Virus record (IMG/VR): IMGVR_UViG_2698536576_000001
Strand: one strand, 5' to 3'
Source: a virus
Lineage: Duplodnaviria > Heunggongvirae > Uroviricota > Caudoviricetes
Length of the DNA: 22,860 bases
Below are positions 8,837-13,402 of the stretch, piece after piece (position 1 is the stretch's first letter; each line of letters starts with the position of its first letter). Both the position numbers and the translations under genes were made by a program. The notes under the pieces were generated by a model. The model had not been told where the DNA came from. It saw only the letters and a program-made list of their open reading frames with translations, and did not search any database.

Positions 8837-9580
8837 ATGACCACACCAAATCCACTGGCAAAGACGAAAGGTGCGGGGACGACGTTCTGGATGTATACCG
8901 GCAACGGCGATGCGTTTGCGAACCCTTTGTCGGACACTGACTGGCTGCGTCTTGCGATGGTGAAGGATCTGCAACCTGGCGAAATGACCGCTGATGCAGA
9001 AGATGACACTTATCTCGATGATGAAGATGCAGACTGGAAAACGACAACCCAGGGGCAGAAATCCGTTGGTGATACTTCGGCGACGCTGGCCTGGCGTCCG
9101 GGTGACAGCGGGCAGAAAAAACTGGTTCAGTTGTTCGACTCCGGTGAAGTCTGCGCGTTTCGTATCAAATATCCCAACGGCACTGTTGATGTTTTCCGTG
9201 GCTGGCTGAGCTCACTGGGTAAAACCATTGCCTCAAAAGACGTGATGACCCGCACTGTGAAAATCAGCGGTGTGGGGCGTCCGTATCTGGCAGAGGAAGG
9301 CACTGAAACCGTGAGCGTTACCGGGCTGACAGTATCACCGGCGTCTGCCAGTGTAAAAGTGGGAGCAACCACCACGCTGACCTTTACAGTAAAACCTGAC
9401 GGAGCCAGTGACAAAGCGATCAGTGTGCATTCGTCAGATCCACAGACTGCCACGGTTACCCTGAACGGACTTGTGGCCACGGTAAAAGGCGTGAAGCAGG
9501 GCAGTGTCAGCATTGTGGGCATGACCGCTGACGGGAATTTTGTGGCTGTGACTGCGGTGACTGTCAGCGCAGCAGGTTAA
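8837..9580 (+). CDS. V: major tail protein V (with C-terminal Ig-like/Big_2 domain)
   Basis: 247 aa; near-colinear similarity to lambda gpV (PNP...KGAGTT.W.Y.G.GD..ANPLSD.DW.RLA.VKDL.PGE.TA, YLDDEDADW, NGTVDVFRGW). Perfect RBS AAGGAGGTGG before the ATG at 8837. The ORF-track start at 8762 overlaps U. Confidence 0.92.
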   Translation: MTTPNPLAKTKGAGTTFWMYTGNGDAFANPLSDTDWLRLAMVKDLQPGEMTADAEDDTYLDDEDADWKTTTQGQKSVGDTSATLAWRPGDSGQKKLVQLFDSGEVCAFRIKYPNGTVDVFRGWLSSLGKTIASKDVMTRTVKISGVGRPYLAEEGTETVSVTGLTVSPASASVKVGATTTLTFTVKPDGASDKAISVHSSDPQTATVTLNGLVATVKGVKQGSVSIVGMTADGNFVAVTAVTVSAAG

Positions 9581-9600: not shown

Positions 9601-9624
9601 GCCCCGGTTATGCGGGGCTTTTTT
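9601..9624 (+). terminator. putative intrinsic terminator/attenuator after V
   Basis: GCCCCG-GTTATG-CGGGGC hairpin followed by TTTTTT (9619-9624). Confidence 0.6.
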
Positions 9625-9640
9625 GCAGGTGGAGAACATG

Positions 9641-10027
9641 ATGTTTCTGAAACAGGACACGTTTAATTATGAAAAACAGTCCGTGGTGCTCAGTGAGCTG
9701 TCCGGGCTGCAGAGAATTGAATATCTGACGTTTGTTCAGCAGCGAACGGCAAAGTTTGATGCCGGGGAGGGAGAACTGCCGGAGGCTGAACGACAGATTG
9801 CTTTTCTGCGGATGGGGATGGATATCAATGCCTGGCTGGTTTCCCGCTCACTGTGGAATGCGGATCAGTCTAAGGATGTAGAGACGCTTTGCGCATCCGT
9901 TATTACAACATGGTCGTATGATGCCCTGGGTGCGGGGGCGGAGATGGTTCTGTCGCTGAGCGGTATGGGGGCCATTGATAATGCTGTGGATGATGAGCAT
10001 GAGGCGCTGACGCCGGAAAAGTCCTGA
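9641..10027 (+). CDS. G: tail assembly chaperone G
   Basis: Similarity to lambda gpG (MFLK...VTLSELS.LQRIE.L, TTW). GGAGA lies 5 nt upstream of the ATG at 9641. The ORF-track start at 9599 is inside the V terminator. Confidence 0.85.
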   Translation: MFLKQDTFNYEKQSVVLSELSGLQRIEYLTFVQQRTAKFDAGEGELPEAERQIAFLRMGMDINAWLVSRSLWNADQSKDVETLCASVITTWSYDALGAGAEMVLSLSGMGAIDNAVDDEHEALTPEKS

Positions 10028-10365
10028 CGCGGGAAATGCAGTTTGTCATGCGGCTTGCCCGGGAGTTCCGGCGTGCAGACTGGCGGCGGATGCTGTCGGA
10101 AATGTCGGCCACTGAGCTTGGTGAGTGGGGCGATTATTTCCGGATGCAGAGCTTCAGTGATGTGTGGATGGATGCGCAGTTTGCCTCGCTGAAGGCATTG
10201 ATCGTGAGAATGGTGTCCGGCAGCAGTGATGCTGCGGTGGCTGATTTCAGCCTTTTACCGGAAGAGAACGGGATACCGGAGCGAACGGACGAAGAACTGA
10301 TGCATCTTGGGGAAGGTATTTCCGGAGGTGTGCGTTATGGACCAGATAGCCAACCTGGTCATTGA
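9641..10365 (+). CDS. tail assembly chaperone G-T fusion via programmed -1 ribosomal frameshift (shift near 10015-10021)
   Basis: The -1 frame relative to G is open from 10003 to the stop at 10363-10365 and overlaps the last 8 codons of G. The only slippery-like heptamer in the overlap is G-GAA-AAG at 10015-10021. The architecture matches lambda G/GT. Confidence 0.6.
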
Positions 10366-13300
10366 TTTGGGGATTGATGCGGCAGAGTTTAAAAATGAAA
10401 TTCCCCGTATCAAAAACCTTCTGAATGGTGCAGCCAGCGATGCAGAACGGTCTTCTGCCCGTATGCAGCGTTTTATGGAGCGTCAGACTCAGGCCGCCCG
10501 GCAGACAACGCAGGCAGCTTCTTCGGCTGCAACAGCCGCATCCGTCCATGCGCAGACGGTGGAGAAGAACGCACAGGCTCATGAACGCATGGCCCGCGAG
10601 GTGGAGAAAACCCGCCAGCGCATGGAGGCACTGAGCCAGAAAATGCGCGAGGAACAGGCGCAGGCCATGGCTCTGGCGGAGGCTCAGGATAAAGCGGCTG
10701 CTGCGTTTTATCGTCAGATTGACAGTGTGAAACAGGCCAGTGCGGGGCTGCAGGAATTACAGCGTATTCAGCAGCAGATCCGACAGGCCAGAAACAGTGG
10801 CGGGATTGGTCAGCAGGATTATCTGGCGCTGATTTCTGAGGTTACTGCGAAAACCCGTGTTCTTACACAGGCTGAGGAAGAGGCTACCCGACAGAAAGTG
10901 GCGTTTATCCGTCAGCTTAAAGAGCAGGCAACCCGCCTGAATCTTTCATCTTCTGAGTTGCTTCGTGCTAAGGCAGCCCAGCTGGGGGTAAGCAGTGCTG
11001 CAGAAGTGTATATCCGCAAAATGGAGCAGGCAGGAAAAGCCACGCATTCGCTGGGTCTGAAAAGTGCAGCAGCCCGCCAGGAGATAGGCGTTCTGATAGG
11101 TGAACTGGCCCGCGGCAATTTAGGGGCGCTGAGGGGATCCGGGATAACGCTGGCTAACCGTGCCGGATGGATAGACACACTAATGTCACAGAAAGGCATG
11201 ATGCTTGGCGGGGTTATTGGCGGTATTGCCGCGGCCGTCTATGGTCTGGGTAAAGCCTGGTATGACGGTCAGAAGGAGGGGGAAGAATTTAACCGCCAGT
11301 TGTCGCTGACGGGGCATTATGCCGGAGTCACTGCCGGGCAGCTGTGGACGCTCAGTCGTGCTATTTCCGGGAATGGTATCACGCAACATGCTGCAGCCGG
11401 TGCGCTGGCTCAGGTGGTGGGGAGTGGTGCATTTCGTGGAAACGATATCGGTATGGTGGCGAGAGCTGCCGCACAGATGGAGCGATCGGTTGGCCAGTCG
11501 GTCAGCGATACCATAAATCAGTTTAAGCGGCTGAAGGATGATCCTGTAAATGCCGCGAAGGCTCTGGACAATGAGCTGCATTTTCTTACTGCCACTCAGC
11601 TTGAGCAGATACGCGTCCTTGGGGAGCAGGGGCGGTCCAGTGATGCTGCACGGATAGCCATGTCTGCACTGGCAGAGGAAACCGGTCGGCGTACTGCGGA
11701 TATTGATAATAACCTCAATGCGCTTGGCAGTACGCTGAAGTATCTGTCTGATTTGTGGAGTCGTTTCTGGGATGCGGCCATGAATATTGGTCGTGAAGAC
11801 TCGCTGGATGAACAGATTGCCGCTTTACAGGAGAAAGTGTCGCGGGCGAAAAGACTCCCCTGGACGGCATCATCTTCTCAGGTTGAATACGATCAGCAGC
11901 GTCTTAACGATCTTCAGGAGAAAAAACGCCAGAAGGATTTGCAGGATGCAAAAGAGCAGGCAGAGCGGAATTATCAGGAGCAACAGAAACGCCGTAATGC
12001 TGAAAATGCTGCACTGAACCGGATGAATGAAACGGAAGCAGCACGACATCAGCGTGAAATTGCGCGTATTAATGCCATGCAGTACGCCGATCAGGCTGTC
12101 AGGGATGCGGCGATACAACGTGAAAATGAACGTTACGAGAAAGCCCTGGCATCCGGTAAGAAAAAAACACGTGAAACCCGTAATGATGAGGCCACCCGGT
12201 TATTGCTGCAGTACAGTCAGCAACAGGCACAGGTGGAAGGACAGATTGCTGCTGCCAGACAGTCAGCAGGCATTGCCACGGAAAGGATGACAGAAGCGCA
12301 TAAACAGCTTCTGGCTCTGCAGCAGCGCATCAGCGACCTGGACGGGAAAAAACTGACGGCAGATGAAAAGAGTGTGCTGGCCCGTAAAGATGAACTGATT
12401 CAGGCACTGACGCTGCTGGATGTAAAACAGCAGGAGCTTCAGAAACAGACGGCACTCAACGAGCTGAAGAAAAAAACAATTCAGCTGACCAGTCAACTGG
12501 CTGAAGAAGAGCGCGCTCAGCGTCAGCAACATGACCTGGATATCGCCACGGTGGGTATGGGTGATCAGCAGCGACAGCGATATCAGGTACAACTGAGTCT
12601 TCGCCAGAAATACCAGCAACAGCTGGAGCAGTTGAGGCGGGATAGTGAGCAGAAAGGGACATATAACACGGATGACTACAGAAAGGCCGAGCAGGCGCTG
12701 ACGGAGAGCCTGAACCGACAACTGAATGAGAATCGCCGTTACTGGCAACAGCTTGAAGTTGTGCAGGGTAACTGGAAAAACGGAGTCCTGCGTGCATTTC
12801 AGGATTTTACCGTGGATGCAGATAATACGGCAGAAACAGCAGAACAGGTGTTCTCGTCAGCCTTCAGCAACATGGGAAATGGCCTGGCAACTTTTGTCAC
12901 TACCGGCAAACTCAATTTCAAATCCTTCACCTCTTCTGTGCTGTCAGATATGGCGAAAATCCTGGCGCAGGCAACCATGATGAAATCGATAAAAGGGATT
13001 GGCAGTGTACTGGGATTTGATCTCAGCAGCCTTTCCCTGAATGCCAATGGGGGGATTTATCAGTCTGCTGATTTGAGTCGTTACAGTGGCACGGTGGTTA
13101 ACCGTCCGACGTTTTTTGCTTTTGCAAAAGGCGCGGGTGTGATGGGGGAAGCGGGACCTGAAGCCATTCTGCCATTGCGTCGTGGTGCTGACGGTAAGCT
13201 GGGGGTTGTGGCGGATATTGGGGGTTCAGGTATGGCGATGTTTTCCCCGCAGTACAACATCGAGATCAATAACGATGGCACGAACGGGCAGATAGGTCCG

Positions 13301-13402
13301 GCTGCCCTGAAGGCGGTTTATGACCTCGGGAAAAAAGCGGCAGCGGACTTTATGCAACAGCAGGCCCGTGATGGTGGTCGGTTAAGTGGAGCATATCGGT
13401 AA
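10337..13402 (+). CDS. H: tail tape measure protein H
   Basis: 1021 aa. The N-terminus aligns with lambda H, and the C-terminal motif EINNDGTNGQIGPAALKAVYD matches lambda H as recalled. Long central Q/E/R/K-rich coiled-coil region. GGAGGTG RBS before the ATG at 10337. Confidence 0.92.
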   Translation: MDQIANLVIDLGIDAAEFKNEIPRIKNLLNGAASDAERSSARMQRFMERQTQAARQTTQAASSAATAASVHAQTVEKNAQAHERMAREVEKTRQRMEALSQKMREEQAQAMALAEAQDKAAAAFYRQIDSVKQASAGLQELQRIQQQIRQARNSGGIGQQDYLALISEVTAKTRVLTQAEEEATRQKVAFIRQLKEQATRLNLSSSELLRAKAAQLGVSSAAEVYIRKMEQAGKATHSLGLKSAAARQEIGVLIGELARGNLGALRGSGITLANRAGWIDTLMSQKGMMLGGVIGGIAAAVYGLGKAWYDGQKEGEEFNRQLSLTGHYAGVTAGQLWTLSRAISGNGITQHAAAGALAQVVGSGAFRGNDIGMVARAAAQMERSVGQSVSDTINQFKRLKDDPVNAAKALDNELHFLTATQLEQIRVLGEQGRSSDAARIAMSALAEETGRRTADIDNNLNALGSTLKYLSDLWSRFWDAAMNIGREDSLDEQIAALQEKVSRAKRLPWTASSSQVEYDQQRLNDLQEKKRQKDLQDAKEQAERNYQEQQKRRNAENAALNRMNETEAARHQREIARINAMQYADQAVRDAAIQRENERYEKALASGKKKTRETRNDEATRLLLQYSQQQAQVEGQIAAARQSAGIATERMTEAHKQLLALQQRISDLDGKKLTADEKSVLARKDELIQALTLLDVKQQELQKQTALNELKKKTIQLTSQLAEEERAQRQQHDLDIATVGMGDQQRQRYQVQLSLRQKYQQQLEQLRRDSEQKGTYNTDDYRKAEQALTESLNRQLNENRRYWQQLEVVQGNWKNGVLRAFQDFTVDADNTAETAEQVFSSAFSNMGNGLATFVTTGKLNFKSFTSSVLSDMAKILAQATMMKSIKGIGSVLGFDLSSLSLNANGGIYQSADLSRYSGTVVNRPTFFAFAKGAGVMGEAGPEAILPLRRGADGKLGVVADIGGSGMAMFSPQYNIEINNDGTNGQIGPAALKAVYDLGKKAAADFMQQQARDGGRLSGAYR

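What the first reader, a model, noticed from the sequence alone, without database searches (positions are those of the whole stretch)
10003..10027. G-T -1 frameshift window with a non-canonical slip heptamer
The T frame opens at 10003 and G stops at 10025-10027, so the shift must occur within 8 codons. The only candidate heptamer is G-GAA-AAG (10015-10021), which differs at one position from lambda's G-GGA-AAG as recalled. A GGGAAAT lies just after the G stop and is unusable in the G frame. P-site re-pairing (GAA to GGA) would be weaker, so the G:GT ratio may differ from lambda, or this is a variant or sequencing difference.
Basis: partly seen in the sequence, partly recalled or inferred. Interest (0 to 1): 0.4.

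Follow-up and report, generated by a model that had tools for sequence, protein, structure and literature searches.

The report
N15-type G-T tail chaperone frameshift site
This is the ordinary -1 ribosomal frameshift site that joins the two tail-assembly chaperone genes (G and T) of a lambda-like E. coli prophage, and its "odd" slip sequence GGAAAAG is the commonest version in this phage family, not an error.

Summary
Gene G (9638-10027) stops at TGA 10025-10027. The -1 (T) frame opens at 10003. G_GAA_AAG (10015-10021) is the only repeat-type slip motif in the 22-nt overlap.

It lies at exactly the position of lambda's G_GGA_AAG. The same heptamer, in the same frame, is already annotated as the -1 slippery sequence in GenBank records of phages N15, phi80 and LLS.

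- Among 41 non-redundant lambda-like G-T junctions from Enterobacterales, 32 carry GGAAAAG and only 3 carry lambda's GGGAAAG.
- All 83 close relatives I checked carry GGAAAAG, so it is not a sequencing error.
- Synonymous sites inside the heptamer are fixed far beyond background: first G 39/41, GAA 34/34, AAG 38/41. This points to nucleotide-level selection on all seven bases.

The likely mechanism is tandem slippage. tRNA-Lys moves from AAG to AAA, and tRNA-Glu moves from GAA to GGA with a G·U pair in the middle position.

The window has no significant downstream RNA structure. It does have an SD-like GAGG 10 nt upstream, which is a possible stimulator but unproven.

Efficiency and the G:GT ratio cannot be determined here. 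Verdict: real, functional by homology, already known in kind, low interest.

The parts
8837..9580 (+). Major tail tube gene (lambda V homologue), immediately upstream of G
   Evidence: Pfam Phage_TTP_12 5e-67 plus Big_2. Annotated as major tail protein in mEp460.
9601..9624 (+). Intrinsic-terminator-like hairpin (GCCCCG...CGGGGC) plus T-run, between V and G
   Evidence: Terminator scan. The homologous feature is annotated in mEp460, Ayreon and N15.
9638..10027 (+). Gene G, tail assembly chaperone (0 frame). RefSeq starts it at ATG 9641.
   Evidence: Translation. PF06894 Phage_TAC_2 3.8e-40. TIGR01674 phage_lambda_G equivalog 7e-55.
10001..10004 (+). SD-like GAGG, 10 nt upstream of the heptamer. 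Candidate upstream stimulator (inferred, unproven).
   Evidence: Anti-SD duplex -5.6 kcal/mol. Position-specific peak of anti-SD complementarity at -18..-7 in the 25 loci without the N15-type structure. Same 10-nt spacing as the dnaX-mimic mRNA printed in PMC6924986.
10003..10024 (+). G/T overlap: the only stretch where a -1 shift can join G to T
   Evidence: T-frame stop at 10000-10002 and G stop at 10025-10027.
10015..10021 (+). Slip heptamer G_GAA_AAG (-1 frame GGA AAA G)
   Evidence: Sequence. Homologous to lambda G_GGA_AAG. Identical to the annotated slippery sequences of N15, phi80 and LLS. Conservation statistics.
10025..10027 (+). G stop codon TGA, one codon after the heptamer
   Evidence: In the family the G stop lies 0, 1 or 5 codons after the heptamer.
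10021..10365 (+). T segment read in the -1 frame after the slip (VLTREMQFV...PGH, stop 10363-10365). It is made only as the C-terminal part of a ~242-aa GT fusion.
   Evidence: Translation. PF06223 4e-15. TIGR01715 phage_lam_T equivalog 3e-40, with the profile starting at residue 5 of this segment. Alignment with the T segments of lambda, N15, phi80 and LLS.
10036..10038 (+). ATG used by database annotations as an independent start for T. Not conserved in relatives.
   Evidence: RefSeq and mEp460 CDS start. This codon's first base is C (CTG Leu) in 95% of 41 relatives (offset 21).
10337..13402 (+). Tape measure gene (lambda H homologue), overlapping the end of T
   Evidence: Pfam TMP_2, Tape_meas_lam_C and TMP_4. 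Annotation.

Best explanation
The window is the tail module of an mEp460/cdtI-like lambdoid prophage of E. coli. G_GAA_AAG at 10015-10021 is its programmed -1 ribosomal frameshift site.

Most ribosomes read GAA AAG UCC UGA and release gpG. A minority slip back one base while tRNA-Glu (on GAA) and tRNA-Lys (on AAG) occupy the P and A sites. tRNA-Lys re-pairs perfectly with AAA. tRNA-Glu re-pairs with GGA: first and third positions Watson-Crick, G·U in the middle.

Translation then continues GUC CUG ACG... to give a gpG-T fusion (...LTPEK-VLTREMQ...). As in lambda, this fusion links the tape measure protein to the tail tube protein during assembly.

What is shown:
- the frames, the homology and the gene order;
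- conservation of all seven bases at synonymous positions;
- the same site annotated in N15, phi80 and LLS.

What is inferred:
- tandem slippage (rather than Lys-only slippage);
- that the SD-like GAGG 10 nt upstream helps, in place of a downstream RNA structure;
- the efficiency.
For: Family and gene order:
- G and T are equivalog-level matches to lambda G and T. The gene order is V-G-T-H.

Homology of the site:
- Lambda's GCG GGA AAG | GTG TTC... aligns codon for codon with the window's CCG GAA AAG | GTC CTG....
- N15 (10027..10033), phi80 (10194..10200) and LLS carry GGAAAAG in the same frame, annotated as the -1 slippery sequence. HK225 and mEp043 also carry it.

Conservation:
- 32 of 41 non-redundant junctions carry GGAAAAG, although the flanking sequences diverge.
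- The Lys codon is AAG in 38/41, against 39% background (P=6e-13).
- The Glu codon is GAA in 34/34, against 61% background (P=7e-8).
- The first G, the third position of Ala, Leu, Pro, Thr, Val, Lys or Met codons, is G in 39/41 against 16.5 expected; 0 of 200,000 simulations reached that.
- All 83 close relatives have the heptamer. The module is present in 1844 of 5426 complete E. coli genomes.

Published support:
- A_AAG is the most shift-prone tetramer in E. coli (PMC4066793).
- N_NNA_AAG sites are used naturally, for example by IS1222 (PMC5009743).
Against: - No direct evidence of a GT product exists for this lineage.
- In a reconstituted E. coli system, G GAA AAG gave mainly 0-frame product and was classed as unfavourable compared with G GGA AAG (PMC6924986).
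- A_AAG alone is near background without a stimulator (PMC4066793).
- The window has no unusually stable or conserved downstream structure: z = -0.2 and -0.40, and no consensus structure.
- The SD-like element is only 4 nt long. Its enrichment is confounded by a conserved Glu codon and by shared ancestry.
Confidence: 0.88

Rival explanations
1. Only tRNA-Lys slips, on the A_AAG tetramer. The preceding G_GA plays no role and the P-site tRNA does not need to re-pair.
For: - A_AAG tetramer sites such as G_CGA_AAG (IS1222) and A_CGA_AAG work naturally.
- Family variants AGAAAAG, GGTAAAG and GGCAAAA have poor P-site re-pairing.
Against: - The first G of the heptamer is a synonymous third position, yet it is G in 39/41 against 16.5 expected.
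- The Glu codon is always GAA, never GAG (34/34).
- Both results are expected if the GAA-to-GGA re-pairing matters.
Confidence: 0.2
2. There is no frameshift. T is translated on its own from ATG 10036, as RefSeq/PGAP and most phage records annotate it.
For: Separate CDS annotations. An ATG exists at 10036.
Against: - That codon is CTG in 95% of relatives.
- The T-family profile and the alignment with lambda extend upstream of it, to the heptamer.
- The only purine-rich stretch before it (GGGAA) abuts the ATG, leaving no spacer (read).
- The heptamer is under nucleotide-level selection.
- From my own recollection, not checked here: no free gpT is made in lambda (Levin et al. 1993).
Confidence: 0.04
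3. GGAAAAG is a sequencing error or a decay mutation of GGGAAAG in a defective prophage.
For: It is one base away from lambda's heptamer.
Against: - It is identical in 83/83 close relatives from independent assemblies.
- It is present in viable phages: mEp460, Tritos, Ayreon, N15, phi80.
- It is the majority form across genera.
Confidence: 0.01
4. RNA polymerase slippage on the A4 run, rather than ribosomal slippage, produces a -1 frame mRNA.
For: The site contains AAAA.
Against: - From general knowledge: productive transcriptional slippage normally needs runs of about 7 or more A/T.
- Selection on the flanking G, G and final G fits codon-anticodon re-pairing, not a homopolymer.
Confidence: 0.02

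Closest known systems
Phage N15 genes 14/15, phi80 G-T and phage LLS genes 11/12 (annotated slippery sequence GGAAAAG)
   Same: Identical heptamer, in the same G frame, at the same position relative to the conserved start of T (ELxFxxxLAREF...). Same V-G-T-H gene order.
   Different: - T is only 41-42% identical.
- The G stop is 1 codon after the heptamer here, against 5 codons there.
- Those phages have a long-range stem starting 5 nt after the heptamer plus an inner hairpin (z -3.3 to -3.9). The window cannot form it: 4/10 and 9/15 pairs.
- They lack the SD-like GAGG that the window has.
Phage lambda G/GT -1 frameshift at G_GGA_AAG (Levin, Hendrix & Casjens 1993)
   Same: Homologous genes at equivalog level. 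The slip site is at the homologous codons, with the same A-site AAG-to-AAA slip. The GT fusion logic is the same.
   Different: The third base of the heptamer is A, not G. The P-site tRNA is therefore tRNA-Glu re-pairing near-cognately (GAA to GGA), instead of tRNA-Gly re-pairing cognately.
E. coli dnaX A_AAA_AAG frameshift with an upstream SD-like element and a downstream stem-loop
   Same: A-site A_AAG slip by the single tRNA-Lys. A purine-rich anti-SD-complementary element 10 nt upstream.
   Different: dnaX has a 5-6 nt SD-like element and an essential stem-loop. Here there is only GAGG and no significant structure, and the function of GAGG is untested.
A_AAG tetramer sites (IS1222 G_CGA_AAG; Bacillus cdd A_CGA_AAG)
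   Same: A non-X_XXY first codon followed by A_AAG.
   Different: Here positions 1-3 are conserved and allow 2 Watson-Crick pairs plus a G·U re-pairing.
Actinophage tail chaperone 'fivetwo' GGGGGAA and 'twofour' motifs in PRFect
   Same: Tail assembly chaperone -1 sites that depart from XXXYYYZ. tRNA-Glu re-pairs GAA to GGA through G:U (PMC10885494).
   Different: In those sites the GAA codon sits in the second (3') codon of the motif, where AAG sits here. The hosts and gene families are different.

Membership tests
Lambda-type tail assembly chaperone G/GT programmed -1 frameshift | The upstream ORF is a gpG-family chaperone | tested here: met
   PF06894 3.8e-40. TIGR01674 equivalog, 184.7 bits against a cut-off of 74.45.
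Lambda-type tail assembly chaperone G/GT programmed -1 frameshift | The downstream ORF is a gpT-family segment in the -1 frame, overlapping the 3' end of G, with no conserved start of its own | tested here: met
   - TIGR01715 equivalog, 136.8 bits.
- Frames and a 22-nt overlap.
- ATG 10036 is not conserved.
Lambda-type tail assembly chaperone G/GT programmed -1 frameshift | Located between the major tail tube gene and the tape measure gene | tested here: met
   V homologue at 8837-9580 and H homologue at 10337-13402.
Lambda-type tail assembly chaperone G/GT programmed -1 frameshift | A slip-prone heptamer inside the overlap, at the position homologous to lambda's | tested here: met
   Nucleotide-level selection shown.
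Lambda-type tail assembly chaperone G/GT programmed -1 frameshift | A GT fusion protein is actually made at a low percentage of G | not testable with these tools
   This needs a reporter assay, a western blot or proteomics.
Canonical X_XXY_YYZ tandem-slip heptamer | The first three bases are identical, so the P-site tRNA re-pairs cognately apart from wobble | tested here: not met
   G_GAA: the -1 codon GGA differs from GAA at the middle position.
Canonical X_XXY_YYZ tandem-slip heptamer | YYY-Z allows the A-site tRNA to re-pair (A_AAG) | tested here: met
   AAG to AAA. AAG is present in 38/41 relatives.
Structure-stimulated -1 PRF (downstream stem-loop or pseudoknot 5-9 nt after the site) | A stable and/or conserved downstream RNA structure | tested here: not met
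   - Window z = -0.2 (90 nt) and -0.40 (120 nt).
- No consensus structure in the family or in the window's subfamily.
- The N15-type stem is not formable in the window.
SD-stimulated -1 PRF (dnaX-like) | An anti-SD-complementary element about 10-14 nt upstream of the heptamer | tested here: inconclusive
   - GAGG at 10001-10004, spacing 10 nt, -5.6 kcal/mol.
- Position-specific enrichment in structure-less loci, Mann-Whitney P=2e-4, not corrected for phylogeny.
- It is only 4 nt long and overlaps a conserved Glu codon.

The most novel reading that the evidence does not exclude
Lambda-like G-T frameshift sites may come in two interchangeable designs. One has a long-range downstream stem plus hairpin and no SD-like element (N15, phi80, lambda). 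The other has no structure but an SD-like GAGG exactly 10 nt upstream, with the G stop 0-1 codons after the heptamer (this window and about 25 lineages). In this reading the near-cognate G_GAA_AAG is the family's preferred heptamer. Both slipping tRNAs (Glu and Lys) carry the same mnm5s2U34 modification, which would make the G:GT ratio doubly dependent on the host's tRNA thiolation state.
Probability: 0.25. Interest if true: 0.35.

Novelty: already known. Interest (0 to 1): 0.15.

Why it matters
For this window it mainly corrects annotation. G and T should be annotated as G plus a joined G-T product. At present T is given as a separate protein starting at a non-conserved ATG, as in RefSeq and most records of this phage type. 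The module is present in about a third of complete E. coli genomes.

More generally, the textbook lambda heptamer GGGAAAG is the minority form in its own family. A near-cognate heptamer that is poorly slippery in vitro is the one kept by selection. That is a useful calibration point for frameshift predictors that require strict X_XXY_YYZ motifs.

Tried and rejected
- I searched for a downstream stimulatory structure in the window. Single-sequence folds gave z = -0.2 and -0.40. RNAalifold on 41 family members and on the 16-member subfamily returned only a trivial 4-bp hairpin.
- I tested whether the N15-type structure could form in the window. It cannot.
- An Rfam scan of the whole window found no family.
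- Literature searches for 'GGAAAAG' or 'G GAA AAG' with 'frameshift' found no phage paper. They found only the EF-G in-vitro study.
- Xu et al. 2004 (Mol Cell) and 2013 (J Mol Biol) are not held. I could not check whether they list this heptamer or tested it.
- The first viral-contig scan returned only loci 100% identical in T. It was useful against the sequencing-error idea but not for diversity.
- Sequencing error, independent T initiation and transcriptional slippage were considered and rejected (see the rival explanations).

Full report
**Observation**

The sequence reads ...GAG GCG CTG ACG CCG GAA AAG TCC TGA in the G frame, with the stop at 10025-10027. In the -1 frame the last upstream stop is TGA at 10000-10002. 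That frame is then open from 10003 to TGA 10363-10365. G_GAA_AAG sits at 10015-10021. Inspecting every G-frame codon in the overlap shows A_AAG to be the only Z_ZZN or heptamer-like slip motif. GGGAAAT (10031-10037) is indeed beyond the G stop. All statements in the observation are therefore correct. The heptamer on its own is not rare, with four copies on the + strand of the window. Its significance comes from its frame and its homology.

**What the locus is**

- The 767-nt G-T region is 97-99.7% identical to phages mEp460, cdtI, Tritos, Ayreon and PhiR55_1.
- It is present in 1844 of 5426 complete E. coli genomes.
- G matches PF06894 and TIGR01674 (phage_lambda_G, equivalog).
- The post-slip segment matches PF06223 and TIGR01715 (phage_lam_T, equivalog).
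- The neighbours are the lambda-type tail tube and tape measure genes.
- This is the classical V-G-T-H tail module.

**Comparison with lambda and other annotated phages**

Lambda reads ...TCT GCG GGA AAG TGT..., and T continues from the final G of the heptamer as GTG TTC GAC GGT GAG CTG.... The window reads ...ACG CCG GAA AAG TCC..., continuing as GTC CTG ACG CGG GAA ATG.... The T segments align without gaps from the first post-slip codon. The two heptamers are therefore positionally homologous and differ only at base 3.

This exact heptamer, in the same frame, is annotated as the '-1 slippery sequence' in three GenBank records:

- N15 (NC_001901, 10027..10033);
- phi80 (FN582354, 10194..10200, with a joined G-T CDS);
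- LLS (PQ299149, 'minus-one programmed translational frameshift site GGAAAAG').

HK225 and mEp043 also carry it. Stx2_14040 has AAAAAAG, and another Stx2a phage has GGGAAAG.

**Survey of the family**

I ran a profile-based scan of one genome per species and analysed 60 of the 80 loci returned, setting aside the lambda-identical contaminant contigs described below. With the window, lambda, N15, phi80 and LLS these reduce to 41 junctions that are less than 90% identical over 247 nt.

| Heptamer | Junctions |
|---|---|
| GGAAAAG | 32 |
| GGGAAAG | 3 |
| GGCAAAA | 2 |
| AGAAAAG | 2 |
| GGTAAAG | 1 |
| GGGAAAA | 1 |

The flanking positions are mostly below 70% conserved. Heptamer positions 2, 4, 5 and 6 are invariant.

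Synonymous-site tests:

- The Lys codon is AAG in 38/41, against 39% AAG among upstream G-frame Lys codons (P=6e-13).
- The Glu codon is GAA in 34/34, against 61% (P=7e-8).
- The first G is the third base of Ala, Leu, Pro, Thr, Val, Lys or Met codons. It is G in 39/41 against 16.5 expected, and 0 of 200,000 simulations reached that value.
- These P values ignore shared ancestry, but the lineages span many genera.
- All 83 close relatives checked — 80 virus contigs plus the mEp460, Ayreon and LH85-a records — carry the heptamer. A sequencing error is excluded.

**Mechanism**

Selection on all seven bases, including the first G and the choice of GAA, favours tandem slippage. tRNA-Lys moves from AAG to AAA, which is cognate. 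tRNA-Glu moves from GAA to GGA, with Watson-Crick pairs at positions 1 and 3 and G·U in the middle. The same GAA-to-GGA re-pairing through G:U is noted for actinophage chaperone sites, and 'twofour' is one of the non-canonical motif classes PRFect lists, whose name fits GGAAAA (PMC10885494).

Published measurements bear on efficiency:

- In a reconstituted E. coli system, G GAA AAG gave mainly 0-frame product and was called the 'less slippery' sequence relative to G GGA AAG (PMC6924986).
- A_AAG alone is near background without a stimulator, but is the best tetramer (5.6%) with a pseudoknot (PMC4066793).
- G_GGA_AAG is among the three best heptamers.

The actual G:GT ratio cannot be derived from sequence.

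**Stimulators**

- The window has no unusually stable downstream fold: z = -0.2 over 90 nt and -0.40 over 120 nt.
- No structure is conserved across the family or across the window's subfamily.
- By contrast, 16 of the 41 junctions (including N15, phi80 and lambda) can form a 10-bp stem starting 5 nt after the heptamer. It encloses a 15-bp hairpin over the LAREFGRPDWRAML codons.
- In that group z runs from -0.9 to -4.4 (most below -2), and there are compensatory changes, for example columns 16/84: AU 14, GC 9, CG 3.
- The window forms only 4/10 and 9/15 of those pairs.
- The window has GAGG at 10001-10004, exactly 10 nt before the heptamer. That is the spacing seen in the dnaX-mimic mRNA.
- Across the 25 junctions without the N15-type structure, anti-SD complementarity peaks sharply at -18..-7. 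The mean is about -4 kcal/mol there, against about -1 elsewhere.
- It is stronger than in the 16 structured junctions (-5.0 against -2.1, Mann-Whitney P=2e-4, uncorrected for phylogeny).
- This suggests alternative stimulators, but it is confounded by a conserved Glu codon and by lineage. I treat it as a hypothesis.

**Rivals**

Independent initiation of T at ATG 10036 is how RefSeq and most records annotate it. It is unlikely for three reasons:

- that codon is CTG in 95% of relatives;
- T homology extends upstream to the heptamer;
- the heptamer is under nucleotide-level selection.

Lys-only slippage is weakened by the conservation of the first G and of GAA. Transcriptional slippage on A4 is implausible.

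**Verdict**

The finding is real and correctly interpreted as the G-T frameshift site. It is an already known kind of site, the N15/phi80-type heptamer, and in fact the family norm. No record of this particular phage lineage that I inspected annotates the joined product, so the practical value is in annotation. Interest is low. The modestly novel residue is the possible dichotomy between structure-assisted and SD-assisted sites.

Noticed in passing
L086 (N15) 706-775; L087 (phi80) same columns; L003 (lambda) about 623-695: In 16 of the 41 junctions (including N15, phi80 and lambda) a 10-bp long-range stem starts 5 nt after the heptamer. It encloses a 15-bp hairpin over the LAREFGRPDWRAML codons. 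z is about -2 to -4.4 in most, and there are compensatory changes (for example AGT/GCT to GGC/GCC). This is a candidate frameshift stimulator. I could not check whether it has been described.
   Followed up: partly
window 10001-10004; homologous -14..-11 in L098, L099, L103, L115, L118, L125, L137, L159, L165: An SD-like GAGG 10 nt upstream of the heptamer is enriched in junctions that lack the downstream structure (mean anti-SD duplex -5.0 against -2.1 kcal/mol). In that group the offsets -14..-11 read GAGG in 10 junctions and GAAG in 2. The test is not corrected for phylogeny.
   Followed up: partly
L096, L098, L100, L102, L105, L106, L121, L142, L158 around 1195-1204: In 9 of 41 junctions the G stop codon (TAA or TAG) follows the heptamer immediately. 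In 12 (including the window) it is one codon later, and in 20 it is five codons later. No other spacing was seen. A stop directly after the slip codon could itself promote slippage.
   Followed up: no
L100-L102 (Morganella), L096/L098 (Kluyvera, Ewingella), L137/L139/L141 (Pantoea), L142 (Providencia), L170 (Stx2_14040): Other heptamers occur at the homologous position: AGAAAAG, GGCAAAA, GGTAAAG, GGGAAAA and AAAAAAG. Several have even poorer P-site re-pairing than GGAAAAG.
   Followed up: no
window 10036-10365; L004 1938-2267; L001 1938-2267: RefSeq/PGAP and most GenBank records of this phage type annotate T as a free-standing 109-aa protein starting at a lineage-specific ATG, with no joined G-T product. 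Ayreon starts it even further downstream.
   Followed up: yes
window 9601-9624: A strong intrinsic-terminator-like hairpin plus T-run lies between the major tail gene V and G. It is also annotated in mEp460, Ayreon and N15. It would lower expression of G/GT and downstream genes relative to V.
   Followed up: no
L144-L150, L152-L156, L162, L164, L166, L167: Short, low-coverage contigs 99.6-100% identical to phage lambda occur in assemblies of unrelated organisms (Kitasatospora, Neobacillus, Oceanobacillus, Leeuwenhoekiella, Enterococcus, Marinifilum, Pseudoxanthomonas and others). This is almost certainly lambda control-DNA contamination. E. coli-type prophage contigs also sit in MAGs labelled Bacillota and Geobacteraceae (L089, L136).
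   Followed up: partly
window 4941-7160: A 739-aa ORF with a TTG start lies in the head-gene region and overlaps the end of the 526-aa ORF at 3608-5188. I did not examine it.
   Followed up: no
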